From NCBI GenBank assembly GCA_016182185.1, contig JACOXU010000001.1, forward strand, positions 207,251 through 271,250: a DNA stretch of 64,000 nucleotides. The letters are read 5' to 3'. Source of the DNA: Candidatus Levyibacteriota bacterium (lineage in GTDB: Bacteria; Patescibacteriota; Microgenomatia; Levybacterales; UBA12049). The notes below the pieces were generated by a model. The model was not told the origin of the DNA, made no database searches, and worked only from the letters and a program-made list of their open reading frames with translations. Position numbers and translations under genes: made by a program. Of the stretch, positions 1-24,075 are shown one piece after another; position 1 is the stretch's first letter, and every line of letters begins with the position of its first letter.

Positions 1-264
1 AAGAATTTCAGGAAGCACAACCTGTTCTTTAAGAGAATGCCAGAGGATATTTACCTTAACAATTTTAAATTTTAAATTTTTCCCCGCTTCGCCCAAGCTT
101 CGCGGGGCGAGAATTTTTAATTCAACCTGATCGTAATCTTGACGTCTTACAAACAGAATATACTGATTTTTTCGATCTACTTGCGCAAGCTGATCAATCA
201 AGTTACGGGTATATCTCCCAACTCCTGTCTGATTCCATAACCTGCAATCAATTCCAATTTTCAT
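1..264 (-). CDS. GT4-family glycosyltransferase, N-terminal part only; the gene runs off the left edge of the window
   Basis: Not in the ORF track because there is no stop in the window. A minus-strand ATG at 262-264 overlaps the stop of 261..1160 (ATGA). The open frame to position 1 reads MKIGIDCRLWNQTGVGRYTRNLIDQLAQVDRKNQYILFV..., the typical GT4 N-terminus. Confidence 0.55.
   Translation of the reverse strand, partial: MKIGIDCRLWNQTGVGRYTRNLIDQLAQVDRKNQYILFVRRQDYDQVELKILAPRSLGEAGKNLKFKIVKVNILWHSLKEQVVLPEIL
61..81. repeat. heptanucleotide tandem repeat (AATTTTA)x3 inside a coding sequence
   Basis: aatttta aatttta aattttt, encoding KNLKFKI on the minus strand. Confidence 0.7.
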
Positions 265-2353: not shown

Positions 2354-3795
2354 GGTTTTTGGTGAAGATCAACCAAAATATAATCAGGAGTTGAAGAAAT
2401 AATTTTATAAGTTTCACCAATATCATCTCCTGTCGGATTAACAATCACCAAATAATCTGCACCCATCATTATCATTTTGGGTAATTCTTCCTGAAAGCTT
2501 GCCCAGCCCTGCCTATTTATTTGATATAAAAATGCTGTGTCTCCATCATATGGAGCAATAACTTTTGCGTCTTTAGGAATCAAATTATTTACTGCTTGAC
2601 CCGCCCGTACTATGGCCGGATTATTTATGTTATAGTAATCTCGAATACTCTGCCAGGAAAAAGCAAACATAAATAGCGCACAAACAGCAAATAGCAATAA
2701 ACCAAAACCACGTCTTATAAGTGAACTGTTTAATTTAAGTAAATATTCACTACCTAAAGCCAAGAAGATAACCAAGCTTGGAACTATAGGAATTTGATAA
2801 TAATCATGATGGACATTTCCACCGGCGACTACAAAAATATAAATAAGAGATGAGATAACAAAAGAAAGAAAAAATAAGTGCTCCTTGATTTTAACTTTTT
2901 GAATCAAGCCCAAAACAAAAAGCGGAAGCCCCCAAGATCCCAAAATTAAAGTCGCTATTCTTTTTTCAAATATCCAGGAGAAAAATGCACCTTTAAATCG
3001 TATATTATTCATATTAAACAGCCAATCGCTTCGAGGAATTCCTTCAGGATTTTGGATAATCCATATTCGCCAAAGAATAAGGGGGTAGATAGAAAAAATT
3101 AAAAAAATCCATAATTGCCATTTTTTTAAAAAACTCAATCCTAACTTGTTCAAAGCAAGAACAAATAACGGTAGTGTAAAAAATAAGGCAAATGGTTTAA
3201 GAAGAAATGACGAAGCAATCAGAATTAAAGATAGAATGAATCTGAAATCATAAATCTTAAGTTTTGAATTTTTTTCAAGCCATAAATCAAAAAAATAAAT
3301 ACCTCCAAGCAAAGTCATAAGCATCATGGCGTCAGGTAAAATCGTTCTGCTATAATAAACGTTATAAGGAAGAAATATAAAAAAGAACAAAGCCAACATT
3401 CCTGCAAAATTATTCTGGTATTTTTTAACAATTAGATACATGAAGATGGCAGCAAGAAGAGAAGAGAAAATCGAAACCAGTCTTCCCCATTGTTCAATCG
3501 TAAATATTCCAAATATTTTAAAAAGTCCGGCTTGAATAATATTATATATCGGAAATTCCACAAAACGATACCCATTTGGATTGTCATAGAAATTTGAGGG
3601 CACATTTGAGAGATCGTCAAACCGAGGATATAAAACATAAAAGCCGTATTTAATAAAATTCCTAGAAACTGCCGATGTATCTGCTTGTCGCCAGCTATGC
3701 CAGTCTGCTACTGGATTATTGAATTTATAAAGCCTTAATACAAAACCTAGTATTAAAATAGAAATTAAAAGAAAAAATTCTTTTTTTTTCATCAA
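2350..3795 (-). CDS. polytopic membrane glycosyltransferase, GT-C fold (ArnT/PMT, GT39/GT83-like)
   Basis: About 12 predicted TM helices. The first loop carries VADWHSWRQADT, which resembles the ArnT/PMT_2 aspartate-containing loop. Confidence 0.55.
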   Translation of the reverse strand: MMKKKEFFLLISILILGFVLRLYKFNNPVADWHSWRQADTSAVSRNFIKYGFYVLYPRFDDLSNVPSNFYDNPNGYRFVEFPIYNIIQAGLFKIFGIFTIEQWGRLVSIFSSLLAAIFMYLIVKKYQNNFAGMLALFFFIFLPYNVYYSRTILPDAMMLMTLLGGIYFFDLWLEKNSKLKIYDFRFILSLILIASSFLLKPFALFFTLPLFVLALNKLGLSFLKKWQLWIFLIFSIYPLILWRIWIIQNPEGIPRSDWLFNMNNIRFKGAFFSWIFEKRIATLILGSWGLPLFVLGLIQKVKIKEHLFFLSFVISSLIYIFVVAGGNVHHDYYQIPIVPSLVIFLALGSEYLLKLNSSLIRRGFGLLLFAVCALFMFAFSWQSIRDYYNINNPAIVRAGQAVNNLIPKDAKVIAPYDGDTAFLYQINRQGWASFQEELPKMIMMGADYLVIVNPTGDDIGETYKIISSTPDYILVDLHQKP

Positions 3796-3798
3796 ATA

Positions 3799-6700
3799 TC
3801 AAATATTTAGGGGAGTAATTTCTCCATGAATATTCTTAATCCACTCAACCAAAGTTCCATCCTCATTGAATTTGAACACTCTCCCGTTTGGTTCACTCAT
3901 TATAGCAAAAGCTTCATCCACTGATTTAACGATATTGACTTTTATATTTTTACCGGGAAAAAGAAGCCATGTCGCATCCTCAAGACCTACCGGGAAAATC
4001 CATGCCTCGCCTTCCCTAATTGGAACATCAACGAAATATAAAGTTGATGCCTCAGAAACACCATAATGAACGTAAGCATTTTCTAAAGATGAAAGAAAAC
4101 TTTTAGATTTTTGACCTGCTCTTTGCCAATCTGTTTGGGTTTTTTGAAACTGAAAAAGCTGAATTGATAAAAAAAATACTGCTATCAGTGCAAAAATAGA
4201 AATTGTAATTTGCCTATCTTTGACATAAAGAAACTTAAAAAGCTTTACGAGAAAGAATGAAAGAAGAAGAGATATTCCAAAAGAAGCAAGATAGCTGTAC
4301 CTTGATGTGATATTTCCTAGTCCTAAAAACGGTAGGAGAGACACAATAAAAAATAGAATCGAAAAGACTAAAATTCTTTTTTCATTATTTTCCAATTTTC
4401 TAAATAAAAATCTATAGAATAAAATAAATATTAATAATAAAACCACCAATGATAAAAAGGCAAATGGAATGTTCGCCCGTAAAAGTGACCTGAGTCCTTC
4501 ATAAAAATTTAAAGAAAAAGAACCAAAAAGTATAAGAATAAAATAGCCAAGAATATTACCAAAAAAATTAAAAGGAAGTTTCAGAAGATTATAATTATAG
4601 TCTCCGCTTAGCCAGTGACTTTGAGATAATAATCTTAGCAGTAAATAAGGTAAGACTGGGAAAAATAATATATAGTAATAAAGTTTGCTAAATAGAGATT
4701 TCAATATAATTTTTTCTTGAAAAATCAAATCATAAAAAATAATCAGTAGTGGAGCAATAATTCCCAGTTCATGAAAAAGTAAGCTTATTATGATTGATAC
4801 AAAAGAAAGAGCAAAATAAAATATTTTTTTATTTTCGCGCCACAAGATAAAAGACAATAACGCCAGGAGAATAAACGTAATGTTAAATAAATGTCCTGTT
4901 GCGGCAATCCAGAAAATCGCCTCTGTATATCCGCTTAGGAAAATAAAAATCAATACAGAAATTACAGACAAATAATAATTTTTAAATATTTTTCTTGAAA
5001 TCAGAAAAAAGAGAACTATATTCAGAAGATGAAGAACGATTGAGACAAAGTGGTAAACTGTTTGATTCAACCAGAATAAATTTTGCATTAAATAAAAATA
5101 AAGTTTTGTTCCCGGCCGGTAAAAAAACCCATTGGCTTTTGTGAAGTACTCGCTAACTATTGCAAGGGGGTTACAATTTATACAATCAGTAGCCCAACGA
5201 AGCCAAGTAAAATCGTCGCCAACGAAATAGTAACTTATGGCACCAGCAAATAATATAAATCCTGCCGTAATTAAGTAGATAATAAATGCATAGGGAGAAA
5301 TTAATATTTTTTTAATCTCACTAACTGTATCTATTTCTTTTTTCTTATAAAGAGCCAGACCTCCGATTACTATTCCCATAATAAGCCAATAAGAAAAAGC
5401 AATTTTTGATGCTTCAAAAACATCGATAAATATTGCGTTTAGGAAAAGACCTACGGATCCTGCAATAAATCCAATGATAAAACTTTTTACCGGCCCTGAA
5501 TCAATATCAGGCAAAATCTTCTTAATATATATGGCGGAAATTAGAAAAATTATTAGAAAAGAAAGAAAACCGATAAGACCTGATTCGCCCAATATTCTTA
5601 AATAATCATTGTCAACTGCAAGACTTACCGATCCATAGCCGCTTCCCAAAAAAATATTTCTTTTGAAGGCCGCAAGCGTATTGGGCCACTCGCCTTGAAA
5701 CCTAGTTGTAAATGAAATGTCATAAGCTTTGGCATTTTTTATAACGAAATCTCCGAAGACGGCTCGAATCTCTCCTTGTCCTTCAGGTTCTTTGTCGCTG
5801 GCTTTTTCAAAGAAATAAAGATGGGAAGTTTTGATAACGGGCGAGAGTGAAAGATTTATATAGCTTGATCCTTGAGGCAAGCTTTCTCCGTTTGGTTTAT
5901 TTGACTCTACAATTAATTGTGATTGAGGAGGTATTTTTTCAAATGGGAATACCGCAGAAGAAGTAGTATTTTTCTTATCAACTTCTGAGATTGGCTGAAT
6001 AAAAACGATTCTGTTTTTAAAATATGATGCTGGTACTTCCTTAATATGTCCGATTGCCTGTCCTGTTTTCGTATCTACCAAAACATCTACTTTCCCAACT
6101 GTGCTTGCAAAACGAGACAACAGGCTTGGAGCCAGTATTACAAAGACAGATATGAGTAAGATCAAAGAGATAACTGCCAGTTTTTTCTTTTGTATAATTA
6201 TTACGATTAAAAGGGCGATTAAAAGTACAGCAAAAGATATACGTGAAACAGTCATAAACATCAAAATAAAACCTAATGAAGCAGAAATTAGAAAAAAGAT
6301 CCGAAGCAATATTTTTTTAAAACCAAATATAGCGCTTACAATAATTGGAACAACAAGTACCAAATATGCTGCGAGATCATAGTGACCAGCAAAAGTTGAG
6401 GGCACACGACCAAGCGTTGAAATCCGAAGAGGAATACCCTTGGCGAACTCTTCATTTCCAGTAAGAAAGGCTGGAAACCCGAGGAATTTTTGACCAAACC
6501 CATATAATGAAGCAAGAATAACTATAATTCCTAGAAGTATAGGAATATATTGTAATAATTTCTTATCTCGCATTCCTGAAAAAGCTACAAAGAATAAAAA
6601 CATATACTCAATTCTCCGAATAAAGCTTAAAATTGCAACATTTGAAAAAACATTTGATAGTGTGGGAAAAAGAATTAATACTCCATGAAGAGTTGATATC

Positions 6701-6945
6701 CCGCCAATAATCCAAAAGAGAATTATAGGTAAAGTCAGGGGCGTTTTGAAACTAATTTTATTTTTCAAAAGTAAAATAAACCAGACAATAATTGTCGACA
6801 AGACTACAAAATCTTCAAGTCGGACATACGCCCACGTATTTCTCACATCGATTAAGGGAAGTTTTGGATAAAGAGGGATAAAAGCAAAAAGTGCCAAGGT
6901 AATTAAATATAAAATATTATCTTTTATAAAGGTAAAAAACTTCAT
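3799..6945 (-). CDS. fusion of an O-antigen ligase/polymerase-like (Wzy_C) domain and a GT-C-like membrane domain, 1048 aa
   Basis: The N-terminal half has Wzy_C-like motifs (RVPSTFAGHYDLAAYLVLVVP, TVSRISF, GSGYGS...DNDYLRILGESGLIGF) with a large inserted periplasmic loop. The C-terminal half is a second multi-TM domain (YYFVGDDFTWLRW) plus a soluble tail. Confidence 0.5.
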   Translation of the reverse strand: MKFFTFIKDNILYLITLALFAFIPLYPKLPLIDVRNTWAYVRLEDFVVLSTIIVWFILLLKNKISFKTPLTLPIILFWIIGGISTLHGVLILFPTLSNVFSNVAILSFIRRIEYMFLFFVAFSGMRDKKLLQYIPILLGIIVILASLYGFGQKFLGFPAFLTGNEEFAKGIPLRISTLGRVPSTFAGHYDLAAYLVLVVPIIVSAIFGFKKILLRIFFLISASLGFILMFMTVSRISFAVLLIALLIVIIIQKKKLAVISLILLISVFVILAPSLLSRFASTVGKVDVLVDTKTGQAIGHIKEVPASYFKNRIVFIQPISEVDKKNTTSSAVFPFEKIPPQSQLIVESNKPNGESLPQGSSYINLSLSPVIKTSHLYFFEKASDKEPEGQGEIRAVFGDFVIKNAKAYDISFTTRFQGEWPNTLAAFKRNIFLGSGYGSVSLAVDNDYLRILGESGLIGFLSFLIIFLISAIYIKKILPDIDSGPVKSFIIGFIAGSVGLFLNAIFIDVFEASKIAFSYWLIMGIVIGGLALYKKKEIDTVSEIKKILISPYAFIIYLITAGFILFAGAISYYFVGDDFTWLRWATDCINCNPLAIVSEYFTKANGFFYRPGTKLYFYLMQNLFWLNQTVYHFVSIVLHLLNIVLFFLISRKIFKNYYLSVISVLIFIFLSGYTEAIFWIAATGHLFNITFILLALLSFILWRENKKIFYFALSFVSIIISLLFHELGIIAPLLIIFYDLIFQEKIILKSLFSKLYYYILFFPVLPYLLLRLLSQSHWLSGDYNYNLLKLPFNFFGNILGYFILILFGSFSLNFYEGLRSLLRANIPFAFLSLVVLLLIFILFYRFLFRKLENNEKRILVFSILFFIVSLLPFLGLGNITSRYSYLASFGISLLLSFFLVKLFKFLYVKDRQITISIFALIAVFFLSIQLFQFQKTQTDWQRAGQKSKSFLSSLENAYVHYGVSEASTLYFVDVPIREGEAWIFPVGLEDATWLLFPGKNIKVNIVKSVDEAFAIMSEPNGRVFKFNEDGTLVEWIKNIHGEITPLNI

Positions 6946-6946
6946 A

Positions 6947-7822
6947 TTAAAACTTAAGTGCCTGCTTGTAGGTTTTCTTAAGATATTTATTTCCTGTAAT
7001 TATTCCAATTATAAATGCCGCAAATGCTTTTGTATTAAGTAATATTTTGACCAAATTATATTCCCAGAAACTTTTATGTTTCTTGTAAAAATACAATATC
7101 CCTTTATAAATATTTAATATGGCAAAGGTTTTATTTCCACTTCCCCTTTCTGTATGTAAAAGCTTTAAGTTAGGAAAAAAATAAGTATCAAATCCAAATT
7201 TTTTAGCTCTGAAACATAATTCTACATCATCCATATACATAAATATATTTTCATCAAATCCTTTAATTTTTTCAAAAACATCTCTTCTTATCATCATGCA
7301 GGCACCGCTCACCCAATCTACTTTTGTAATTATGGAAGGGTTTACTCGCACCAGTCCAAATCTTTCTCCTCCTATCAACATGATGACTAAATTGAAAAGA
7401 TTATAAAATTTACCTGCCGACAATTGAGAAGAACCATTTATATTGGTAAGTTTTCCTCCTAAAATTCCAGCACCGGTATTTTTCTCTAAAAATTCGATCA
7501 TGTTTAAAAAATTACGATCCTTCACTTCCGTATCCGAGTTTAGAAACAAAATATACTTACCGCCTGCAGTTTTGGCAGCTATGTTATTTCCTTTGCTAAA
7601 ACCGTAGTTTTCTTTATTTCCGACAATGTTTAAATTTGGGATTTGAAATTTAGGATCTGAGACTTCATTTAAAGTTCCATCTGTTGAAGCATTATCAGCA
7701 AGAATTATTTCAAAATCACCCATTTCAAGCTCTTTCCTGTACTGTTTTATTAACGACTGAATGCAATTAAGGGTTAATTCTTTTGTATTATACGAGAGGA
7801 TAATAATAGACAATTTAACCAT
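6947..7822 (-). CDS. GT2-family glycosyltransferase
   Basis: LSIIILSYNT...ILADNASTDGT and the rest of the GT2-A fold motifs. Confidence 0.8.
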   Translation of the reverse strand: MVKLSIIILSYNTKELTLNCIQSLIKQYRKELEMGDFEIILADNASTDGTLNEVSDPKFQIPNLNIVGNKENYGFSKGNNIAAKTAGGKYILFLNSDTEVKDRNFLNMIEFLEKNTGAGILGGKLTNINGSSQLSAGKFYNLFNLVIMLIGGERFGLVRVNPSIITKVDWVSGACMMIRRDVFEKIKGFDENIFMYMDDVELCFRAKKFGFDTYFFPNLKLLHTERGSGNKTFAILNIYKGILYFYKKHKSFWEYNLVKILLNTKAFAAFIIGIITGNKYLKKTYKQALKF

Positions 7823-7823
7823 C

Positions 7824-8375
7824 TTATCTAAACCAAGCTGCTCTACCCAGTTTGTAATTTAACTCTTTGTTTCTTTTTCCGATTTCTTTGGCGGGAACTC
7901 CACCGACTATTGTGAACTCTTCGACATCCTTTGTAACCACAGCTCCAGCTCCCACGACTGCTCCCTTTTTAATCTTTACTCCAGGCAAAATAATTGTCCT
8001 AGGTCCTACGAAAACATAATCTTCTATAGTTACCGGTGCTGTTATAGCGTGAAAATCAACGCTTTGTACATCATGCTGGGCATTATAAATCATAACCTCC
8101 GAAGCAATATCAACATGATTTCCTATAATAAGAGCGTCTCTTCCATCCAGAACCGTGCCTTCTCCTATAATCGAATCTTCACCTATCTTTATATTCTTAG
8201 GGTCATAAAAAACTGCGCCCATGTGAACAGCTGACCCTTTTCCAATGCTTAATCCTGAAATTCTGTAGAAAAATCTTCTGACATGATGAGACGGAATAAA
8301 ACCTACAACTCGCAATATAAAATTAATAAGTTCCGTAAGTATCGTATATAATCTCTTGAAAATTTTTCCAATCAT
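7824..8375 (-). CDS. hexapeptide-repeat (left-handed beta-helix) sugar O-acetyltransferase
   Basis: Tandem [LIV]G..xx hexapeptide repeats (IGEDSIIGEGTVLDG...IGNHVDIASEVMI...VGPRTIILPGVKIKKGAVVGAGAVV). Confidence 0.75.
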   Translation of the reverse strand: MIGKIFKRLYTILTELINFILRVVGFIPSHHVRRFFYRISGLSIGKGSAVHMGAVFYDPKNIKIGEDSIIGEGTVLDGRDALIIGNHVDIASEVMIYNAQHDVQSVDFHAITAPVTIEDYVFVGPRTIILPGVKIKKGAVVGAGAVVTKDVEEFTIVGGVPAKEIGKRNKELNYKLGRAAWFR

Positions 8376-9499
8376 ATACTTTCAAGTGCCTTCAATGTTT
8401 CCCTTGCTGTTTTTTCCCAAGAGAATTTTTTGACTTGTTCATAGCCTTTCGTAGCTAGTTCTCTACGAAGATCTAAGTCCTCAATAATTTTTTTTAAATT
8501 TTTCGTAATCTCTTCCACATTTTCAGGATTAAAATAAATAGCCGCTTGTCCCCCTGCTTCAGGCAGACTTGAGATATTACTGGTCAAAACCGGACATCCA
8601 TATTTCATGGCCTCAAGAATTGGTAATCCGAATCCCTCATAAAGACTAGGCAATACAAAACAAATGGCATTTTTGTAAAAATTTGGAAGCTCATCATCCG
8701 GAATTTCATGTAAAAATTTAACTCTTTTTTCTACATCAAATTTTTCAGGGGCCACAAGAATTTCTTCCCACATCCAGCCCTTTCTGCCTACAATTACTAA
8801 TTCAACATCTGTCTTAAGCTTTGAAAAAGCTTCTATAAGTCTTACAATATTTTTCCTTGGCTGAATTGTACCGACAAATAAAATGTAAGGGTTATTAATT
8901 CCGTATTTTTTCTTTAAATCTTCCATATTTTGAGATTTGAGATTTGAGATTTGAGATTTTATACCCGGATATGTAACTATGATTTTTTCGCTGGGTATTT
9001 TATATAAATTGATTATATCATCTTTGGAAGCTTGGCTTATGGTAAAAATTCGCTTGGCTTTTTTGATGGAATACCTTCCCCAGTATTTAAGTTGAATAAA
9101 GTCTTTCCCTTTAAAAAGTTGAGGGAAATGTAGATAAGAAAGGTCTAAAATTGAAATTGCGGACGGGATAGACGTAAAAAGAGGAAGATAATGGGTGGGT
9201 GTAAAAAAAATATCAGGTTTTGAATTTCCCAATATTAGCTCAAAAGACAAACCAAACATTGTCCATAATTTCCGGGGTTTTACTATTTTATAATTCCAAT
9301 TTTCTGATTCTTGAGGCATATCTGAAGCAGGATTGTCTGGAATATAAATAATGTAGTTATTTTTTTTGTCAATTTCATTAAAATTCAAAAGAAGCTCGAA
9401 GCAGTATTGTCCGCTTCCAACTCTGTTTGGCAAACCTGTTTTTGGATCGTATCCGAATCTCGACACAACAGCTTCAAAACCATTTATTCCAATTGTCAT
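8372..9499 (-). CDS. GT4-family glycosyltransferase; its interdomain linker contains a heptanucleotide repeat
   Basis: GT4 N-domain (MTIGINGFE...) and C-domain (ILFVGTIQPRKN...EAMKYGCPVLTSN). The linker KSQISNLKSQN is encoded by (TTTGAGA)x4 at 8929-8956. Confidence 0.8.
   Translation of the reverse strand: MTIGINGFEAVVSRFGYDPKTGLPNRVGSGQYCFELLLNFNEIDKKNNYIIYIPDNPASDMPQESENWNYKIVKPRKLWTMFGLSFELILGNSKPDIFFTPTHYLPLFTSIPSAISILDLSYLHFPQLFKGKDFIQLKYWGRYSIKKAKRIFTISQASKDDIINLYKIPSEKIIVTYPGIKSQISNLKSQNMEDLKKKYGINNPYILFVGTIQPRKNIVRLIEAFSKLKTDVELVIVGRKGWMWEEILVAPEKFDVEKRVKFLHEIPDDELPNFYKNAICFVLPSLYEGFGLPILEAMKYGCPVLTSNISSLPEAGGQAAIYFNPENVEEITKNLKKIIEDLDLRRELATKGYEQVKKFSWEKTARETLKALESI
8929..8960. repeat. 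heptanucleotide tandem repeat (TTTGAGA)x4.4 inside a GT4 coding sequence
   Basis: tttgaga x4 followed by tttt. The 7-nt unit is not a multiple of 3. Confidence 0.85.
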
Positions 9500-9500
9500 A

Positions 9501-10040
9501 TTAAATACCAGGATAAATAACTTTTATTTTTTTTTCTGGAATTTCTAAAATATCCATTACGTCTTTCTTAGTAGAATCCGAGATGCAAAATATCATATCT
9601 GATTCTTTTTTAACCAACTCAAATTTTCTTTTTTGAGTATTGATAATTTTTTTATCCATTTCATTTGAAGCTTTATAAATTGTTAGATCGTAGATAATTG
9701 TAGTCTTTTTTCCATTCCTCAGTGGTGGCTCTGTCCAATCAGATGTCATGAAAATATCGATATCATCGATAAGCTTATCGATCGACAGCACATGAAGCTT
9801 ATTCCATAAAATGTCCAAAAGAGTTGGTGGAAACTTAAATTTCTTTATTGTGACCTTTTTATTAAGCCTGACCTTGTTCTCAAATGGAATAGGCAATGAT
9901 CTTCTTAATGAAGAAAAAAATAAAATATAATAATTTTCTTTATCAATTGCTGTAAGGTTTAATAAAAGATTTGACAGATAATTATAAACTCCGGTTTTGC
10001 TTGGATAAGCAAGCTGAGAGATATCAATTCCAATTCTCAT
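9501..10040 (-). CDS. GT4 N-terminal-domain-only ORF; a gene-fission product or truncated duplicate
   Basis: MRIGIDISQLAYPSKTGVYNYL...KIKVIYPGI stops exactly at the GT4 interdomain boundary (YPGI). One nt later a complete GT4 gene begins. Confidence 0.5.
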   Translation of the reverse strand: MRIGIDISQLAYPSKTGVYNYLSNLLLNLTAIDKENYYILFFSSLRRSLPIPFENKVRLNKKVTIKKFKFPPTLLDILWNKLHVLSIDKLIDDIDIFMTSDWTEPPLRNGKKTTIIYDLTIYKASNEMDKKIINTQKRKFELVKKESDMIFCISDSTKKDVMDILEIPEKKIKVIYPGI

Positions 10041-10065
10041 ATATTAATTCTAAGTCAACTCAAGG

Positions 10066-10941
10066 TTATTTTCTAGTAGATAGATATATTCCCAGAAGAG
10101 CAAGCGTACCTCCGATGAGAAGTCCTAGCGTAAGTCTCTCGCTCAAAAGCACGAATGCTGCTATAAACGCGAAAATTGGCAAAAGATAAAAAGACATTGA
10201 CGCAAATACTGATCCGCCGTGTTTTATGGCGTATTGGTTAAGAAGATAAGTTATTATTGTACCAAAAATTGCTACATATCCAAGAGATAAAATGCTTGGG
10301 AAATTTATAATTGATATCCATTCGTTATTTTTCCAAAAGTCGACAATAAAGATGGGAAAAAGAATTATTGTTGTGATAAGTATGAATACGCTGTTTATCA
10401 AAAATGGTGAGTAATCTTTGCTATATTTTTTGGAAAATACTATATAAAATGACCAAGATAAAACTCCTCCCGCAATCAAGAGATTTCCTATTAAATCTCC
10501 TGCAAACGGCTTACCCTGTTCAAGAACGGGAAGAAAAGCTACAATAGCAACACCGATAAATCCTACGATAATGCCAATAGATTTGCTAATTGATTGCCTA
10601 TCATTAAAAAGAATAAATAAAATTAAAGATGTGATAAATGGTGTCCCTGCATAAAGCAGTTGTCCTATTGTTGCAGTTGTTGTTCTAATTCCTACTATAA
10701 AAAGAATAATATTAAGAGTTGCAAAAAGAGTAAACGGAATTAATTTTTTTAGCTGCTTAATTGAAAAATTATATTTTTTAAAAAATAGAGGAAGTATGAT
10801 TACTGATGCAATAAAAAATCTCAGAAAGGCAAAAGTAAGAGGAGGAATACTTACCAGTCCAATTTTTGTGGCTGTTGTTACCGCACCACCCATCAATGAG
10901 CCAAGGAAAACTGCCAAAAATGCTATTTGCCGATCAGACAT
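10066..10941 (-). CDS. EamA/DMT-superfamily transporter
   Basis: About 10 TM helices with duplicated EamA-like halves (LRFFIASVIILPLFF...; ...LSERLTLGLLIGGTLALLGIYL). Confidence 0.6.
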   Translation of the reverse strand: MSDRQIAFLAVFLGSLMGGAVTTATKIGLVSIPPLTFAFLRFFIASVIILPLFFKKYNFSIKQLKKLIPFTLFATLNIILFIVGIRTTTATIGQLLYAGTPFITSLILFILFNDRQSISKSIGIIVGFIGVAIVAFLPVLEQGKPFAGDLIGNLLIAGGVLSWSFYIVFSKKYSKDYSPFLINSVFILITTIILFPIFIVDFWKNNEWISIINFPSILSLGYVAIFGTIITYLLNQYAIKHGGSVFASMSFYLLPIFAFIAAFVLLSERLTLGLLIGGTLALLGIYLSTRK

Positions 10942-10942
10942 T

Positions 10943-11164
10943 TTATTTTGCTTTCTTTAAGCTTAATAGATGAAAAATAACTGAGACTAAAAAAAAGGCT
11001 GCAGCATAATAAGTCAGTCTTTGAGCTGTAAAAAATATTTGGAGATAAAAAAGAGGAATAGATACAATAAGCGAAATAATTCCAGTATATGCCGATATAG
11101 CCGGATTACGCTTTAAAATTAAAAAAACAAAGATAATTAAAAAAATAATATCTTGGATTTTCAT
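10943..11164 (-). CDS. small 2-TM membrane protein
   Basis: A 73-aa hydrophobic ORF packed between the transporter and a GT2 gene. It could be a GT2 accessory such as a GtrA- or DUF2304-like protein, but this is unverified. Confidence 0.35.
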   Translation of the reverse strand: MKIQDIIFLIIFVFLILKRNPAISAYTGIISLIVSIPLFYLQIFFTAQRLTYYAAAFFLVSVIFHLLSLKKAK

Positions 11165-11166
11165 TT

Positions 11167-12093
11167 CTATTCATCACTTGAAAACTTAAGCATTTTTCTT
11201 TCGGAAACTTTATCTGAGCTATGAAGAAAAAGATCAGCCAAGAATCCGGTGAAAAATATCTGAATTCCGCTTATAACCAAAAGGATTCCGAGAAAAAGCA
11301 GTGGTCTATTTCCAATTGTATAACCTTCAATACGAAGAACTGTAAGATAGAGAAGAACTATAGTTCCTGCTATAAATAGGAGTCCGCCAACAGGGGCAAA
11401 GAAATGAAGAGGTCTTTTAGCATATTTTGAAAGAAAAAGCATGGTAAACATATCAGGAATTTCAGTAAATACTTTGGAAAATCCATATTTTGATTTACCG
11501 AACTTTCTTTTTTCATGAGTAACCGGAATTTCTGTTACTCTAAAACCATCCTCGTGGAGAAAAAGCGGGATAAAACGATGTCTTCCTCCATATAAATTTA
11601 AGGATTTAGCAGCATCACTTGTATAAAGTTTTAAACCACAATTGTAATCATGCAGCTTTGTTCCCCAAAAGACAGATGCAATCAGATTAAAAAATTTTGA
11701 TGAAATAACCTTTACGATAGAATCCTTACGATTTTTTCTCCAGCCAGAAACAGCATCCCAGCCCTCTTCTTGTTTTTTGATTAATTTTGAAATCTCACTT
11801 GGTTTGTCCTGAAGATCAGCATCAAGTGTAGCTATCAATTCTCCTCTTGCTTTTTGAAATCCAAAGGTTAAGGCTTCTGCTTTCCCCCGATTTCGCCTAA
11901 ATGAAAATATATGAACGCTTTTTTCTTTACTATGAAATTCTTTTAATATTGTAAGGCTATTATCACTTGACCCATCATCAACAAAAATTACCTCATAATC
12001 CACTTTTAGCTTTTTAAATTCTGCTGTAAGCTCTTTAAAAAATGGATTTAAGCTCTCTTCTTCGTTAAAAACAGGCACAATTACGCTTAGCAT
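11167..12093 (-). CDS. GT2 polyprenyl-phosphate sugar transferase (DPM1/GtrB/ArnC-like) with C-terminal TM helices
   Basis: MLSVIVPVFNEEESL...VIFVDDGSSDNS...DADLQD, plus two C-terminal TM helices typical of GtrB/ArnC. Confidence 0.8.
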   Translation of the reverse strand: MLSVIVPVFNEEESLNPFFKELTAEFKKLKVDYEVIFVDDGSSDNSLTILKEFHSKEKSVHIFSFRRNRGKAEALTFGFQKARGELIATLDADLQDKPSEISKLIKKQEEGWDAVSGWRKNRKDSIVKVISSKFFNLIASVFWGTKLHDYNCGLKLYTSDAAKSLNLYGGRHRFIPLFLHEDGFRVTEIPVTHEKRKFGKSKYGFSKVFTEIPDMFTMLFLSKYAKRPLHFFAPVGGLLFIAGTIVLLYLTVLRIEGYTIGNRPLLFLGILLVISGIQIFFTGFLADLFLHSSDKVSERKMLKFSSDE

Positions 12094-12102
12094 ATGCCTA
12101 TT

Positions 12103-14166
12103 TTACCATTTTTTACTTATGTAGCCAAAAATAAGAAGACCTAGAACCAAAGAAACACTAATTAAACTTATCACAACTCCCCTATTGACCCAGTCTTGGG
12201 GGGTATAGTAGATCTCAAGCGTATAATCCCCGCCCTTGGGAAGAGTAAAGCTATTGAATAAATTACTATATTTATGGCTTTTTATACTAATCTCATTATT
12301 TCTTGCCACCCAATATTTATCAAAACTTTCAGAAAAAACAAGAACGTCGTTTTTCTGTGCATTTTTCACTGAAAGTTTATATTTCGTTGGATTAATAGAT
12401 TGAAAACTAATTTCTAAATTTTCCGACGGACTCCAAAAATGACCTCTTGGATCTAAGATTTCAAAAACTGTAATCTTCCCAAATCCCTTAACTTCCTTTA
12501 GCCAATTAATTTTTCTCACGTCTTCTATCGTTTTCAGATATAACGAATCAAAATATTTTCTGTCTTTTAAGAAAATCTCGTGTTGTGAATCAAAGGGGAC
12601 AATTACATATTTAACAGAAAGGTTTTGAAGCTCTACTTGTGATTTTTTATCATTCAGATATTTAACGACATCATAAGGATTATATTTATTTATAAATTCC
12701 TGGCCTGAAATTGAAGGATGAATATCTGATCGAAATCCAAATCTTTCATGTGTAGGGATCCAAAAAGTTCTGTAAAAAACTTTTTCTTTTGATAAGAAAT
12801 TTGCAAGTTTTACATATTCCTGAGGTAAACTTTGTTGCCTGAATGTTCCAGTCAACTCTCCAAAAAATGCAGGGCGGATTAAATACAATAGATATAAAGT
12901 TATAAATAACAAAAAAAAATTCTTTACATTTAGGATCTTGCCTTTGGTGGTTATTTGAAATTTGAAGTTAGAAATTTGAAATTTTAGCTGAGATTCCAGC
13001 AACTTATATAATTTCCAAATGCTAAATGGGATTAGTATTGAATATGAGAGAACAACTAGAAAATACCATTTAGTCGGATCTCTAAACATTACAAATCCCG
13101 GGATATGTTCAAAAAGCCATAAATATATTCCGCCAAATGGGTCATTTGCCCCTTTTGCCAAAAAGGAACCAATTAAGCCCAGGAATATAAAAAAAATTAT
13201 ATATTTTTTTTCATCTTGAGCTAATTTTTTGACAAAAAATAAACTTAAGTATGCAAGAATCGGTATTAGTAAAAACTCTGATTTCATAAAATAAACTTTA
13301 CCAAAAATATTTTCCGGCCAATATGGATGAAGCATTGATATTGTCTGTTCAAATTTTGCAAAACTAAGATATGGAACTATTTCCACCGATGAATAAGCCG
13401 GTCCAAGTTGTTGTATGGGATTTTGCTTAGTAACCAAAAGGGGAATAAGCCAAAAAGCATGAACCAAAAAAGCAATTACACCAGGAGGAACAAAAATAAC
13501 TATAAATTTCTTTATTAAGTCTATGCTATTCCTATTTGCGAGCTGAACAACTATGAAGTAAATCAATACAGAAACAATTGTCGCGTAAAATGCTCTAGGA
13601 TCAAATATTAATTGTAGGGCAATAATTAAACCGGTCAGTATTGATTTCTTAAGATCAAAGTGTTCTTCTTCAATAAGTTTTATGAAAATCCCCAAAACTA
13701 AAGGGGCGATTGCGTAGGCGATTGCAATTGCCATTTGCCCTCCCCCCACAATCATTAAAAGATATGTGTTAAAGATAAATACAAAAGGAGATAAAAAGGA
13801 AAGTTTATTCTTAGGCATCGTTATCTTAAACAAATACCAGGAGGATAAAAATGAAATCAGAATAAATGGCCAAAACCAAATTAATCTTTCTATAAATATC
13901 CATGGAAGATTAAAGTATCTGAATAACACAATCGTTGTGGTTGAAAAATAGGTATGAAGACCTAAAATAAAATTAATATTTATACCCGTATTGCTTAATA
14001 GATAACTCCATACATAGGGGAAGATGGTAAGGCTTTCTATTTGATTTTCAAATCTGAAATTCCAATCACCTGAGGAAATAACATCAAAAGAAAGCCAAGT
14101 TTTAAAAACGGCCAGAACGAGAAAAAAAATGAACAAATATGCAAGCTTTGTAATTATATTTTTCAA
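12103..14166 (-). CDS. large polytopic membrane protein, putative GT-C glycosyltransferase (687 aa) with an extracytoplasmic C-terminal domain
   Basis: At least 12 TM helices, an early-loop ISSGDW motif, a soluble roughly 250-aa C-terminal domain and a terminal TM anchor. It contains heptamer repeats at 12954-12987. Confidence 0.45.
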   Translation of the reverse strand: MKNIITKLAYLFIFFLVLAVFKTWLSFDVISSGDWNFRFENQIESLTIFPYVWSYLLSNTGININFILGLHTYFSTTTIVLFRYFNLPWIFIERLIWFWPFILISFLSSWYLFKITMPKNKLSFLSPFVFIFNTYLLMIVGGGQMAIAIAYAIAPLVLGIFIKLIEEEHFDLKKSILTGLIIALQLIFDPRAFYATIVSVLIYFIVVQLANRNSIDLIKKFIVIFVPPGVIAFLVHAFWLIPLLVTKQNPIQQLGPAYSSVEIVPYLSFAKFEQTISMLHPYWPENIFGKVYFMKSEFLLIPILAYLSLFFVKKLAQDEKKYIIFFIFLGLIGSFLAKGANDPFGGIYLWLFEHIPGFVMFRDPTKWYFLVVLSYSILIPFSIWKLYKLLESQLKFQISNFKFQITTKGKILNVKNFFLLFITLYLLYLIRPAFFGELTGTFRQQSLPQEYVKLANFLSKEKVFYRTFWIPTHERFGFRSDIHPSISGQEFINKYNPYDVVKYLNDKKSQVELQNLSVKYVIVPFDSQHEIFLKDRKYFDSLYLKTIEDVRKINWLKEVKGFGKITVFEILDPRGHFWSPSENLEISFQSINPTKYKLSVKNAQKNDVLVFSESFDKYWVARNNEISIKSHKYSNLFNSFTLPKGGDYTLEIYYTPQDWVNRGVVISLISVSLVLGLLIFGYISKKW
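12954..12987. repeat. imperfect heptanucleotide repeat (TTTGAAA-like)x4.7 inside the coding sequence of 12103..14166
   Basis: tttgaaa tttgaag ttagaaa tttgaaa ttttag, encoding KFQISNFKFQI. Confidence 0.7.
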
Positions 14167-14172
14167 TCTAGC

Positions 14173-15384
14173 CTACTTGTTGGTTTTAATAAATTCTTCA
14201 ATCGCATCAATCATATAATCGAGCATCTCTTTTGTCTGAGAAGAATGCACGCCGAGCAGGAATGAATCTCGATGAACCTTATCCGCTGTTTCTAGTCCGC
14301 CTACCAAAATGACAGGTAAGGATTTGAATCCTGATTGACGAAGAATATTTCCGGCGAAGAAAAGACGGGTTCTAATCTTATTTTTTTCTAAAAATTCTAC
14401 CAGATCTTTCCTACTAAAAGGAACTTTATCTCTCAAAGTTAAGGGAAAATTGAACCATGATGGATTAGCCTGTGGCAAAGTTTCAACAAAATGAAAGTAA
14501 TCTCCCAACTTATTTAATTTTGTCATAAGATATTTAAAATTTTTTCTTCTATCCCTGTGGAAATTTTCTAGCCTGTCCATTTGAACCAAGCCAAATGCTG
14601 CCATAATTTCAGGTACTTTAAAATTATAGCCTATTTCAGAATATGAATACCTATGGTCATAAGGAACTCCATTGCTTATGCTATCAAAATAAACACCATG
14701 ATCTTTGTCGTAACCTAATGTAATCTGTTCTTTTCCCCATTCCCTAAGGCTTTTAACCCGATAGGCAGACTTTTCATTTTTTGAAAGAACTATTCCTCCT
14801 GCACCTGCAAGTGTCATGTGATGGCTGGCATAGAAAGAGCATGTGGAAAAATTGCCAAACGAACCTGTTTTTCTACCATAAATTTCACTTCCTAAACCAT
14901 CACAGTTATCTTCAATAACCTGAAGCTTATACTTAGATGCAAGATGCATAATTCTTTTCATATCAACCGGATTACCAAGGGTGTGAGCAAAAATTATTGC
15001 TTTTATATCTTTATGTTTCTTAACCGCCTGTTCAACTCTATCAAGATCGATGTTTAAACTTTTAAGATCAACATCAACGGCAACAACCTGAAGATGGGAG
15101 TGCCATATAGGAGAAAGAGTCGAAGGAAATCCAGCTGCGCAGGTCAAAACCTTACTCCCCTCGGGAAGATTTAGCACACGTATAGCCAGAAGGTTTGCGG
15201 ATGAACCTGAGTTTACCAGACTTGCATAGGGCATTCCGATATATTTTGCAAAACGTTTTTCGAAACGCTCTGTCAGTCGTCCAGTACCAAGCCATCCGTA
15301 TTTTAGGCAATCCACGACTGCGTTTATCTCTTTCCCATCATAAACTGCTTTTGCAAAAAATATCTGATCTTTTCTTTTCTTCAC
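14173..15384 (-). CDS. DegT/DnrJ/EryC1/StrS-family PLP/PMP enzyme, E1-like sugar 3-dehydrase (RfbH/DdhC-type); GTG start
   Basis: VNSGSSANLLA is the DegT signature. The active-site segment reads SFYASHHMTLAGAGG, with His where aminotransferases have the PLP lysine; this is the hallmark of 3-dehydrases (E1, ColD). AGGA sits 7 nt before the GTG. Confidence 0.6.
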   Translation of the reverse strand: MKKRKDQIFFAKAVYDGKEINAVVDCLKYGWLGTGRLTERFEKRFAKYIGMPYASLVNSGSSANLLAIRVLNLPEGSKVLTCAAGFPSTLSPIWHSHLQVVAVDVDLKSLNIDLDRVEQAVKKHKDIKAIIFAHTLGNPVDMKRIMHLASKYKLQVIEDNCDGLGSEIYGRKTGSFGNFSTCSFYASHHMTLAGAGGIVLSKNEKSAYRVKSLREWGKEQITLGYDKDHGVYFDSISNGVPYDHRYSYSEIGYNFKVPEIMAAFGLVQMDRLENFHRDRRKNFKYLMTKLNKLGDYFHFVETLPQANPSWFNFPLTLRDKVPFSRKDLVEFLEKNKIRTRLFFAGNILRQSGFKSLPVILVGGLETADKVHRDSFLLGVHSSQTKEMLDYMIDAIEEFIKTNK

Positions 15385-15456
15385 AAGATTTTCCTAAAAG
15401 TTTTTATTTTGGAGTATATCATAGTGAAATTTCAATAGTAAAGAAGAATTTTCAAG

Positions 15457-16470: not shown

Positions 16471-16514
16471 ATTTTATTATTTAAAGATTATTATGAATAA
16501 TTCCCAAAAAAATA

Positions 16515-19866: not shown

Positions 19867-19878
19867 TCTAGAAAAAAT

Positions 19879-20871: not shown

Positions 20872-20895
20872 TGGTAATGGCTTATTTAGGATCCG

Positions 20896-21756: not shown

Positions 21757-21762
21757 TTTTTT

Positions 21763-24025: not shown

Positions 24026-24030
24026 AGCTA

Positions 24031-24060
24031 ATTCTACCTTGTCGAATATTTTAATTTCAA
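24031..24060 (-). promoter_or_regulatory. sigma70-like promoter of the 24-kb leftward operon; leaderless
   Basis: On the minus strand: TTGAAA (24060-24055), an 18-nt spacer, TAGAAT (24036-24031), then 5 nt to the ATG at 24025. Confidence 0.4.
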
Positions 24061-24067
24061 GTATAAT
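24039..24067 (+). promoter_or_regulatory. sigma70-like promoter; near-leaderless transcript for 24076..25290
   Basis: TTGTCG (24039-44), a 17-nt spacer, TATAAT (24062-67); the ATG is 8 nt downstream. It overlaps the leftward promoter face-to-face. Confidence 0.45.
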
Positions 24068-24075
24068 CCTGAATA

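What the first reader, a model, noticed from the sequence alone, without database searches (positions are those of the whole stretch)
8929..8960. (TTTGAGA)x4 repeat sits exactly in the interdomain linker of a GT4 glycosyltransferase
The repeat encodes KSQISNLKSQN between the conserved YPGI end of the N-domain and the ILFVG start of the C-domain of 8372..9499. A plus or minus one unit change would truncate the enzyme after its N-terminal domain. This makes it a plausible ON/OFF switch for one glycosyl addition.
Basis: seen in the sequence. Interest (0 to 1): 0.55.

Follow-up and report, generated by a model that had tools for sequence, protein, structure and literature searches.

The report
Heptamer repeat in glycosyltransferase linker
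A perfect 7-base repeat really does encode the floppy linker between the two halves of a sugar-adding enzyme in a Levybacteria (CPR) genome, and similar 7-base tracts sit at the same spot in many related species, but no evidence was found that it is used as an on/off switch.

Summary
(TTTGAGA)x4.4 lies at 8929..8959. On the coding strand it is (AAATCTC)x4.4 and encodes K181-N191 of the GT4 gene 8372..9499. That segment is a disordered coil between the two Rossmann domains. A change of one or two units truncates the protein at 192-203 aa.

The tract is not isolated.
- The linker DNA of 69 distinct orthologues is 7-nt periodic (lag-7 identity 0.51 against 0.28 in controls).
- The repeat units differ between species, and four lineages carry perfect 4.4-4.6-unit tracts.
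- The neighbouring N-domain-only GT4 and GT2 genes, a second GT4 linker and an epimerase C-terminus carry similar tracts.
- All 25 perfect repeats found in 656 kb of related DNA have period 7.

Several results count against a routinely used switch.
- The tract is short and sits mid-gene.
- 85 of 86 orthologous loci are in frame.
- Contigs of the same species carry identical tracts.
- No copy-number variant of this gene exists in public data.

My best reading is a slippage-born heptamer microsatellite serving as spacer coding sequence. It is evolutionarily dynamic and can cause rare reversible knock-outs. A true contingency locus remains possible (about 0.3). Read-level data would decide between the two.

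The parts
8929..8959 (-). Perfect heptanucleotide tract. It reads (AAATCTC)x4.4 on the coding strand and (TTTGAGA)x4.4 on the + strand, and encodes K181-N191 (KSQISNLKSQN).
8372..9499 (-). GT4 (GT-B fold) glycosyltransferase gene, 375 aa, identical to NCBI MBI2031218.1 from a Candidatus Levybacteria MAG.
8960..9499 (-). Part of the gene that encodes the N-terminal Rossmann domain (residues 1-180, ending VTYPGI).
   Evidence: Pfam Glyco_transf_4 at 75-180; structure model
8372..8928 (-). Part of the gene that encodes the C-terminal Rossmann domain (residues 192-375) and the stop codon. It contains the E288-x7-E296 motif.
   Evidence: Pfam Glycos_transf_1 at 193-354; invariant E288 and E296 in alignment A1
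9501..10040 (-). Conserved stand-alone GT4 N-domain ORF (179 aa) that ends VIYPGI*, one base before the ATG of the full GT4. Its orthologues in other species carry a heptamer tract in the loop after FSSLR[RK]; this copy does not.
7632..7660 (-). Degenerate 7/14-nt periodic tract in a loop (residues 55-64, SDPKFQIPNL) of the GT2 gene 6947..7822. The same loop carries perfect (AAATCTC) or (AATTTTC) tracts in orthologues L097 and L128.
54577..54610 (-). Tract of 14-mer x2.4 (heptamers AATTCAG/AATTCAA) in the interdomain linker (residues 153-164, RIQNSEFKIQNL) of a second GT4 gene, 53999..55066.
58332..58362 (-). Perfect (TTCAAAA)x4.4 tract that encodes the last ten residues (NSKFKIQNSK*) of the NAD-dependent epimerase gene 58330..59325. 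It ends in an ATGA overlap with the next gene.
1577..1613 (-). Degenerate heptamer tract (residues 247-259, IKLKVKSEKLKVK) in a C-domain loop of the GT4 gene 1157..2353.
12953..12984 (-). Near-perfect heptamer tract (TTCAAAT-type, 4.6 units, 84%) that encodes KFQISNFKFQI (residues 395-405) of the 687-aa ORF 12103..14166, which has no Pfam match.

Best explanation
The tract is a genuine heptanucleotide microsatellite born by replication slippage. It now serves as coding sequence for a disordered spacer of about 11 residues between the two Rossmann domains of a GT4 glycosyltransferase. The peptide it encodes appears not to matter. Only the length class, the reading frame and the absence of stop codons are constrained.

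It is one member of a class of short, stop-free, A/T-rich heptamer tracts of about 4-5 units. These tracts occupy permissive loops and termini of glycan-synthesis enzymes in Levybacteria.

The tract evolves by unit gain and loss. Units are replaced and re-homogenised between species, and flanking indels shift the frame in which the tract is read. A slip of one or two units truncates the enzyme after its N-domain. The site is therefore a hotspot for rare, reversible loss of one glycosyl-transfer step.

The steady state in nature is ON, and the tract is too short to behave as a classical high-frequency phase switch.

Shown: the tract itself, its location, the consequences of a frameshift, 7-nt periodicity across species with different units, in-frame status in nearly all orthologues, and the exclusive period-7 bias. 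Inferred: slippage as the origin, passage through OFF intermediates, and a low switching rate.
For: - The tract encodes a low-confidence coil between the domains.
- In 69 distinct orthologous linkers the mean lag-7 identity is 0.51, against 0.28 (sd 0.085) in 8949 control windows of the same genes. 41% of linkers reach 0.6 or more, against 0.6% of controls. No other lag from 3 to 12 stands out.
- The units differ between species. The window has (AAATCTC)x4.4. L109 has (AAATCTC)x4.6 read in another frame. L110 and L159 have (AAATCCG)x4.4. L005 has (AAAACTC/AAAATTC). L093 has (AAACTCA). Most others have degenerate (AAGTATN)x5. So the periodicity is conserved while the peptide is not.
- Linker lengths peak at 72 nt and 93 nt, which is three units apart.
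- 85 of 86 loci are in frame.
- The same kind of tract occurs where no ON/OFF effect is possible, at the epimerase C-terminus.
- It also occurs in loops of the adjacent N-domain-only GT4 and GT2 genes.
- All 25 perfect SSRs in 656 kb of related DNA have period 7. The window has six lag-7 hotspots against 0-1 at other lags.
- The literature reports that heptamers are over-represented among bacterial SSRs, that the proposed cause is polymerase slippage, and that four units is the commonest length of the Xanthomonas GGGAATC arrays (PMC4692102).
- Long (AAATCTC)n tracts also exist in unrelated bacteria.
Against: - If loops were simply permissive, units of 3, 6 or 9 nt should be tolerated best, yet none is seen.
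- I infer that perfect period-7 tracts in four lineages, with three different units or frames, arose through repeated single-unit steps, which means viable out-of-frame intermediates. This fits a dispensable, switchable gene. Ectopic conversion from another tract could avoid such intermediates, and it was not tested.
- Several glycosyltransferase genes in one surface-glycan cluster carry frameshift-prone tracts. This is the classic signature of contingency loci.
- Positional persistence over deep divergence (55-72% protein identity) suggests that something maintains the tract.
- A frameshifted allele (L161) and a split allele (L056) do exist in the family.
Confidence: 0.55

Rival explanations
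1. The tract is a true contingency locus. Slipped-strand mispairing toggles the GT4 gene ON and OFF at an elevated rate. Together with the tracts in neighbouring glycosyltransferase genes, this gives the population a mixture of surface-glycan variants, for example to escape phage, predators or host recognition.
For: - The tract is perfect, its unit is not divisible by 3, and it lies inside a glycosyltransferase of a 64-kb surface-glycan cluster.
- A change of one unit truncates the enzyme.
- Sibling tracts occur in a second GT4 linker and in the GT2 loop, and the N-domain-only GT4 of related species carries one too.
- Only frameshifting period-7 repeats exist in 656 kb.
- The tract position is conserved while the units turn over.
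- There is a precedent: a heptanucleotide repeat controls phase variation of the Neisseria pilin glycosyltransferase pglE (PMC7157529).
- Three or more heptamers is an accepted candidate threshold in H. influenzae (PMC2651432).
Against: - 85 of 86 orthologous loci are ON.
- Same-species contigs have identical tracts.
- No variant alleles are found in public data.
- All tracts are about 4-5 units long. No long tract of 8 or more units was seen in any Levybacteria-type locus, although phase-variation rates depend on repeat number (the review PMC11868660 lists such studies).
- The tract is mid-gene rather than at the 5' end, where phase-variation repeats are typically enriched (PMC3315296).
- A similar tract at the extreme C-terminus of the epimerase cannot act as a switch.
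Confidence: 0.3
2. The heptamer tract has a function at the DNA level. It could be a preferred landing site for very small GC-rich palindromic mobile elements, or a recombination junction that helps shuffle glycosyltransferase modules. On this view its coding role is incidental.
For: - The same small palindromes are embedded in heptamer tracts at different sites and in different genomes. CCGCCA[AG]TTGGCGG is in the GT4 linker of L152, L153 and L155 and in the N-only loop of L157. CC..CCTTCGCTAAAGC..GG is in L088 and L163.
- In the pair L150/L151, megablast shows 99% identity that starts 4 nt after the end of the tract, with no comparable match upstream.
- From my own memory, Nostoc small dispersed repeats are often embedded in tandem heptamers (Elhai et al. 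2008; the paper is not held in the library).
Against: - The window tract carries no insertion.
- Only one breakpoint coincidence was seen, and a more sensitive blastn run joins the L150/L151 pair into one alignment at 94% identity.
- Other close pairs show no clean junction at the tract.
- No protein or mechanism that would recognise the tract was identified.
Confidence: 0.07
3. The repeat is maintained because the protein needs a particular repetitive (heptad-like) peptide in its linker.
For: Three heptamers make 21 nt, which is 7 residues, so the peptide has a heptad period. Linker lengths cluster at 72 and 93 nt.
Against: - The tract encodes only 1.5 heptads.
- Orthologues encode unrelated peptides from different units (KSQISNLKSQN, KSEIRNPKSET, KTQNSKLKIQN, KKVSSIKYKVLS).
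- The same unit is read in a different frame in L109.
- The segment is predicted to be disordered.
- Selection on the protein would give period 21 at most, not period 7, at the DNA level.
Confidence: 0.03
4. The repeat is a chance occurrence or an assembly artefact.
For: None beyond the fact that the sequence comes from a metagenome-assembled genome.
Against: - The probability of such a run by chance is negligible.
- Equivalent tracts are present at the same site in independent assemblies from many samples and projects.
Confidence: 0.01

Closest known systems
Heptanucleotide-repeat phase variation of the Neisseria pilin/protein glycosyltransferase gene pglE
   Same: In both cases a tandem heptanucleotide tract lies inside the coding sequence of a glycosyltransferase that adds one sugar to a surface glycan. 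Unit gain or loss shifts the reading frame (PMC7157529).
   Different: [quoted passage not shown] Here no variant allele was found and 85 of 86 orthologous loci are ON. The tract here has only 4.4 units, sits in the interdomain linker, and belongs to a CPR bacterium. Homology to PglE was not tested.
Simple-sequence contingency loci of LOS, capsule and glycosylation clusters (Haemophilus tetranucleotides, Campylobacter poly-G)
   Same: Several glycosyltransferase genes in one glycan cluster each carry a repeat whose unit is not divisible by 3. One unit length is characteristic of the lineage (PMC2651432, PMC11868660).
   Different: Known loci have long, hypermutable tracts, usually near the 5' end, and a large share of OFF alleles among genomes (PMC3315296). 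Here the tracts are short, lie in internal loops or at the C-terminus, and are almost always in frame.
Over-represented heptameric SSRs of bacteria (Xanthomonas GGGAATC arrays, cyanobacterial tandem heptamers or STRR)
   Same: The SSR excess is exclusive to period 7, and the modal length is about four units. Length and sequence vary between related species at conserved positions. Polymerase slippage has been proposed as the cause (PMC4692102). From my own memory, Nostoc has small palindromic elements embedded in heptamer arrays (Elhai 2008), as seen here.
   Different: Those arrays are mainly intergenic and often G-rich. Here the tracts are A/T-rich, free of stop codons, and translated as loops of enzymes.
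Helicobacter pylori fucosyltransferase heptad (21-bp) repeats (own knowledge, not checked here)
   Same: A tandem DNA repeat encodes a variable-length spacer in a glycosyltransferase. Changes of three heptamers here would likewise alter spacer length by 7 residues.
   Different: The H. pylori unit is 21 bp, so it stays in frame at every step. Here the unit is 7 bp, so single steps are frameshifts.

Membership tests
GT4 (GT-B fold) glycosyltransferase | N-terminal Glyco_transf_4 and C-terminal Glycos_transf_1 Rossmann domains | tested here: met
   Pfam PF13439 at residues 75-180 (E 2.3e-07) and PF00534 at 193-354 (E 2.3e-36). Matches to solved MshA and GlgM-type GT4 structures. Two-domain alpha/beta model.
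GT4 (GT-B fold) glycosyltransferase | E-x7-E motif in the C-terminal domain | tested here: met
   E288-GFGLPIL-E296 is read directly in the translation. Both glutamates are invariant in 32 orthologues.
SSR-mediated phase-variable (contingency) locus | Uninterrupted tandem repeat, with a unit not divisible by 3, inside the reading frame or promoter | tested here: met
   7 nt x 4.4, 100% perfect, in codons 181-191.
SSR-mediated phase-variable (contingency) locus | Repeat number above what genome composition predicts | tested here: met
   0.0 lag-7 hotspots in codon-shuffled windows against 6 observed. Three or more heptamers is the threshold used for H. influenzae (PMC2651432).
SSR-mediated phase-variable (contingency) locus | Repeat-number polymorphism between or within strains, producing both ON and OFF alleles | tested here: inconclusive
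   No second genome of this species is available. An exact flank-plus-repeat pattern gave 0 metagenome hits. Predicted products for -3 to +3 units are absent from 15 billion proteins. Across species, 85 of 86 loci are in frame, and same-species contigs carry identical tracts. One frameshifted allele (L161) and one split allele (L056) exist, but the cause is ambiguous. Reads were not available.
SSR-mediated phase-variable (contingency) locus | Switching rate well above the basal mutation rate, and reversible | not testable with these tools
   This needs read-level allele counts or a reporter assay. Only indirect evidence is available: unit turnover between species.
SSR-mediated phase-variable (contingency) locus | A switch in a selectable, usually surface, phenotype | not testable with these tools
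   The genomic context is a surface-glycan cluster. The substrate and product of this GT4 are unknown.
Bacterial tandem heptameric repeats (STRR / heptamer SSR class) | Head-to-tail repeats of a 7-nt unit, recurring at many sites in the genome, with period 7 in excess over other periods | tested here: met
   25 of 25 perfect SSRs in 656 kb have period 7. The window has six lag-7 hotspots against 0-1 at other lags.
Bacterial tandem heptameric repeats (STRR / heptamer SSR class) | Predominantly intergenic location | tested here: not met
   24 of 25 perfect tracts lie wholly or almost wholly inside ORFs, mostly glycosyltransferase genes, and are read in frame. The window tract at 58332..58362 is assigned to the epimerase gene.

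The most novel reading that the evidence does not exclude
Levybacteria, and perhaps other CPR bacteria, maintain a 'phasome' of short heptanucleotide contingency tracts. The tracts sit at fixed loop positions in several glycosyltransferases of their surface-glycan cluster: the GT4 interdomain linker, a loop of the N-domain-only GT4, and a loop of the GT2. Their positions have been kept over deep evolutionary time while the units turn over. Slippage at these tracts would give combinatorial, reversible variation of the cell-surface glycan in organisms that live attached to hosts and are exposed to phage. This would be the first simple-sequence phase-variation system described in the Candidate Phyla Radiation.
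Probability: 0.25. Interest if true: 0.75.

Novelty: new member of a known kind. Interest (0 to 1): 0.5.

Why it matters
CPR (Patescibacteria) cells are tiny, mostly uncultured and often episymbiotic. Their surface glycans are likely to be central to host attachment and phage defence. Nothing is known about whether they use phase variation, and no paper in the searched library combines Patescibacteria with phase-variable genes.

This locus gives a concrete, checkable candidate. The test is to count 3-, 4- and 5-unit alleles in existing metagenomic reads.

Whatever that test shows, one finding bears on how microsatellites are born, kept and turned over inside coding sequence. A frameshift-prone 7-nt periodicity is conserved in position, but not in sequence, across dozens of species, and it is the only SSR period present. 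The finding also extends the long-noted and unexplained excess of heptameric repeats in bacteria to translated regions of a new phylum.

Tried and rejected
- Exact look-up of the gene product in the contig index found nothing, although the protein is in NCBI as MBI2031218.1.
- An exact DNA pattern (two repeat units plus a degenerate YPGI flank) found 0 hits in the metagenome collection. No same-species alleles could therefore be compared.
- The genome-contig scan with the full-length alignment was swamped by the generic GT4 motif PSLYEGFGL. I fixed this for the metagenome scan by using an alignment of the N-domain only.
- My first regex-based linker extraction missed about 30 loci. I replaced it with local tblastn anchoring.
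- The protein search with the N-terminal 191 residues returned only short proteins. Most of these end at or near contig ends. L162 and L163 have stops in the linker, but the contig ends 16-21 nt later at low coverage, so they are not reliable OFF alleles.
- I considered that contig ends pile up at the linker as a sign of population heterogeneity. The tails of L082, L100, L121 and L125 do not end in tracts, so I dropped the idea.
- I looked for a clean case of tract replacement between close relatives (L090/L098/L095 against L108, and L150 against L151). The whole N-only gene is mosaic there, so the comparison is not informative.
- Searching with a synthetic (AAATCTC)n peptide found long tracts only in unrelated bacteria, as spurious small ORFs, and none in CPR glycosyltransferases.
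- Elhai et al. 2008 could not be read, so the comparison with Nostoc small dispersed repeats rests on my memory.
- I rejected the idea that the upstream N-domain-only ORF is a frameshift relic in this genome. It is a conserved 177-184 aa gene in many species.
Full report
**1. The observation**

Tandem Repeats Finder reports a perfect period-7 array, TTTGAGA x4.4, at 8929..8959. An independent scan for exact periodic runs gives the same coordinates. The array lies in a 375-aa ORF on the minus strand, 8372..9499. On the coding strand it reads (AAATCTC)x4.4 and encodes K181-S-Q-I-S-N-L-K-S-Q-N191.

The protein is a GT4 glycosyltransferase.
- Pfam finds Glyco_transf_4 at residues 75-180 and Glycos_transf_1 at 193-354.
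- Weak NCBIfam matches to many GT4 subfamilies fall below their cut-offs.
- The protein matches solved MshA-type and GlgM-type enzymes.
- It carries the E288-x7-E296 motif, invariant in 32 orthologues.

An AlphaFold2 model built on 32 orthologues has a mean pLDDT of 83. Residues 181-191 are coil between strand 173-175 and helix 192-199, and this block has the lowest confidence in the protein (mean 54).

Simulated slippage gives these products:

| Change in units | Product length |
|---|---|
| -1 | 192 aa |
| +1 | 203 aa |
| -2 | 196 aa |
| +2 | 199 aa |
| -3 | 368 aa, in frame |
| +3 | 382 aa, in frame |

A run of 24 lag-7 matches cannot arise by chance in 64 kb. Codon-shuffled windows give 0.0 lag-7 hotspots, against six observed.

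**2. Origin and context**

The protein is identical to MBI2031218.1 from a Candidatus Levybacteria MAG, on a contig of 617 kb. The window is 33% G+C. Almost the whole window is one surface-glycan cluster transcribed from the minus strand. The cluster contains:
- sugar-nucleotide enzymes;
- five full GT4 genes and at least seven GT2 genes;
- GT-C/PMT-like membrane proteins;
- a flippase, an acetyltransferase and a methyltransferase.

The nearest homologue is only 71% identical, and the 90%-identity cluster has a single member. There is therefore no second strain of this species in the collections.

**3. The proposed test, comparison with orthologues**

A protein alignment showed that the segment after YPGIK is hypervariable in length and sequence. 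I then fetched orthologous DNA. About ten loci came from reference genomes. Eighty came from metagenomes, using an alignment of the N-domain only so that frameshifted alleles would also be found. I anchored each locus by local tblastn on both sides of the linker.
- 85 of 86 loci are in frame through the linker, representing 69 distinct linker sequences.
- The exception, L056, has the linker deleted. The gene is split there into two ORFs with an ATGA stop/start overlap.

The linker DNA is 7-nt periodic in a large share of species. The identity between bases seven apart, over the first 42 nt, averages 0.51. In 8949 control windows from the same genes it is 0.28 (sd 0.085). 41% of linkers reach 0.6 or more, against 0.6% of controls. 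Every other lag from 3 to 12 stays between 0.26 and 0.33.

The units differ between species:

| Locus | Tract in the linker |
|---|---|
| window | (AAATCTC)x4.4 |
| L109 | (AAATCTC)x4.6, read in another frame (REISNLKSQISNM), with compensating flank changes of +4 and -1 nt |
| L110, L159 | perfect (AAATCCG)x4.4, followed by a degenerate (AAATTCA) array |
| L005 | (AAAACTC/AAAATTC)x2.4 |
| L093 | (AAACTCA), about six units |
| commonest type (KKVSSIKYKVLSM) | degenerate (AAGTATN)x5 |

Linker lengths peak at 72 and 93 nt, which is three units apart. What is conserved is the period and the position. The peptide is not conserved.

**4. The tract is one of a class**

The window has six lag-7 hotspots, against none or one at any other lag apart from two at lag 14. 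Besides the tract in question, they are:
- the interdomain linker of a second GT4 (54577..54610, RIQNSEFKIQNL);
- the last ten codons of an epimerase (58332..58362, NSKFKIQNSK*);
- a C-domain loop of a third GT4 (1577..1613);
- a 687-aa ORF with no Pfam match (12953..12984);
- a membrane protein (61094..61128).

I scanned 656 kb of Levybacteria-type loci plus the window for perfect SSRs of period 2-16 with at least 3 copies and at least 17 matched positions. All 25 found have period 7, and 24 of them lie in ORFs.

Besides the GT4 linker, two more sites recur across species.
- One is the loop after FSSLR[RK] in the stand-alone N-domain GT4 ORF just upstream. It carries (AATTTTC)x4.4, (AAATCTC)x4.6 or (AAATTTC)x3.9.
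- The other is a loop at residues 53-66 of the downstream GT2. The window GT2 has a degenerate version at 7632..7660.

GT4 homologues from G+C-rich Anaerolineae also carry A/T-rich heptamer tracts in a C-domain loop (L015, L020). Several tracts contain small G+C-rich palindromes inserted in frame. The same palindrome families recur at different sites and in different genomes.

**5. Search for OFF or length variants of this gene**

- An exact DNA pattern found nothing in the metagenome contigs.
- The predicted products for -3 to +3 units, and the free C-terminal fragment, are absent from 15 billion proteins.
- Same-species contigs from different samples carry identical tracts (L113/114/115, L152/153/155, L118/119, L134/135).
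- A search with the N-terminal half found one convincing frameshifted orthologue, L161. Its N- and C-domains are called as separate, overlapping ORFs. The linker is 61 nt long and contains an (AAGAATT)-type tract. A 1-nt error and a unit slip cannot be told apart there.
- Two further cases, L162 and L163, have stops in the linker but lie at low-coverage contig ends.

**6. Interpretation**

Three things have to be explained: the exclusive period 7, the conservation of position with turnover of units, and the near-universal ON state.

The period-7 bias is a known feature of bacterial SSRs and has been attributed to polymerase slippage. In Xanthomonas the commonest length of the GGGAATC arrays is also four units, and arrays at conserved positions vary between related species (PMC4692102). 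Long (AAATCTC)n tracts exist in unrelated bacteria. So the mutational origin needs no special pleading.

Tracts persist only where an insertion is tolerated, that is in loops, linkers and termini, and only if they are free of stop codons on the coding strand. All observed units meet that condition.

I infer that perfect period-7 tracts do not arise from in-frame 21-nt steps. They call for single-unit gains and losses, which means out-of-frame intermediates, unless a whole tract was copied in from elsewhere. No donor with the same unit exists in this window.

Frameshifted states must therefore have been viable in the past. The site is a real hotspot for reversible inactivation.

Several results argue against the high-rate, balanced switching that defines classical contingency loci (PMC11868660, PMC3315296):
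- consensus sequences are almost never OFF;
- all tracts are short;
- the tract is mid-gene;
- the same kind of tract sits at an epimerase C-terminus, where a frameshift would have little effect.

I therefore put about 0.55 on a slippage-born spacer microsatellite that is a rare mutational OFF site. I put about 0.3 on a true contingency locus. The remainder goes to a DNA-level role (a target for the small palindromes, or a recombination junction), selection on the peptide, or an artefact.

**7. Comparison with what is known**

The closest functional analogue is the heptanucleotide repeat that phase-varies the Neisseria glycosyltransferase gene pglE (PMC7157529). Intragenic and promoter heptamers are also known in H. 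influenzae hmw genes (PMC2651432). The closest structural class is the over-represented heptameric SSRs of bacteria (PMC4692102).

From my own memory, that class includes the cyanobacterial tandem heptamers that host very small palindromic mobile elements (Elhai et al. 2008; the paper could not be read).

Membership of the GT4 family is met. Membership of the class of phase-variable loci fails only on the decisive criterion, observed ON/OFF polymorphism, which was inconclusive here.

No paper in the library links Patescibacteria with phase-variable genes.

**8. Verdict**

The object is a new member, in a new phylum and at an unusual mid-gene linker position, of a known kind: a coding heptanucleotide SSR and candidate contingency tract.

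The broader pattern found here is more interesting than the single tract. Frameshift-prone heptamer periodicity is conserved in position across dozens of species and in three adjacent glycosyltransferase genes. Existing reads could test what it means.

Noticed in passing
window 9501..10040 (-); also L001, L004, L006-L008 and most of L081-L160, just upstream of the GT4: A stand-alone GT4 N-terminal domain protein (177-184 aa, Pfam Glyco_transf_4 only) ends at ...YPGI*, exactly at the domain boundary. In this window the stop is one base before the ATG of the full-length GT4. The arrangement is conserved across Levybacteria and Gottesmanbacteria, so it is a gene and not a relic. It may act as a partner subunit of the GT4, in the way Alg14 partners Alg13, but that is speculation.
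   Followed up: partly
L152/L153/L155 (GT4 linker), L157 and L088 (N-only loop), L163 (GT4 linker), L097, L111, L113-L115, L118/L119, L159: Small G+C-rich palindromes of 14-30 nt are inserted, mostly in frame, inside the A/T-rich heptamer tracts. Examples are CCGCCA[AG]TTGGCGG and CC..CCTTCGCTAAAGCTT..GG. The same element families recur at different sites and in different genomes. They look like very small mobile hairpin elements that target the tracts.
   Followed up: partly
L056:2540-2680: In one more distant orthologue with higher G+C, the linker is deleted and the GT4 is split at the domain boundary into two ORFs with an ATGA stop/start overlap (…VTYPGFTK* / MKNYILSVGTLQPRKN…). This suggests the two halves could work as separate, translationally coupled polypeptides.
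   Followed up: partly
L161:246-1365: In a farmland-soil contig the orthologue is frameshifted inside the linker, which is 61 nt long and contains an (AAGAATT)-type tract. It is called as two overlapping ORFs of 211 and 172 aa. This is the only convincing OFF-type allele found. A unit slip and a 1-nt error cannot be distinguished.
   Followed up: partly
window 59778..59815 (-), inside GT2 gene 59322..60104: A perfect 14-mer tandem repeat, ATGACTGACTATTG x2.7 on the + strand, encodes KSVINSQSSIVSH (residues 97-109). It is another repeat with a frameshifting unit inside a glycosyltransferase.
   Followed up: no
window 58332..58362 (-): A perfect (TTCAAAA)x4.4 tract forms the last ten codons of the epimerase gene 58330..59325. 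It runs into an ATGA overlap with the next gene (DUF5667 protein, 57806..58333). A slip would change the C-terminal tail and the stop/start overlap, and so perhaps translational coupling.
   Followed up: partly
L015:934-961 and L020:2880-2911: GT4 homologues from Anaerolineae MAGs (57-62% G+C) carry perfect A/T-rich heptamer tracts, (AAATTAC)x4.0 and (CCAATCT)x4.6. The tracts are in the loop between ...EAFxxL and LxIVG of the C-domain. The window GT4 1157..2353 and some Levybacteria orthologues are heptamer-periodic in the same loop. The phenomenon is therefore not confined to CPR.
   Followed up: partly
L059:4250-4550: A Roseiflexus contig has a run of more than 300 nt of degenerate heptamers (CAACGTT and CAACATC types). 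All three frames are open, apart from a single stop near the start of one frame in the 324-nt stretch examined.
   Followed up: no
L150:3555-3592 against L151:1191-1230: By megablast, two contigs are 99% identical for 4.9 kb downstream, starting 4 nt after the end of the (AAATCTC)x4.9 tract in the N-only gene of L150. Upstream there is only a separate, weaker match of 79% identity. L151 has no tract at that position. This may be a recombination junction at the tract, but a more sensitive blastn run joins everything into one alignment at 94% identity.
   Followed up: partly
L164:3001-3201, L165:3001-3201 and proteins P0159-P0175: Long (AAATCTC)n tracts of about 10-16 units exist in unrelated bacteria, including records labelled Microcoleus and Planctomycetaceae. 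They are annotated as spurious 60-70 aa ORFs that encode (KSQISNL)n.
   Followed up: partly
window 1..64000: The whole window is one surface-glycan cluster, almost entirely on a single strand. It has five full GT4 genes, at least seven GT2 genes, four or more GT-C/PMT-like membrane proteins, and a 1184-aa AftD-like GT-C protein. It also has two DegT aminotransferases, dTDP-sugar enzymes, a flippase, and large ORFs with no Pfam match (3799..6945, 12103..14166, 16515..18179, 28581..30599).
   Followed up: partly
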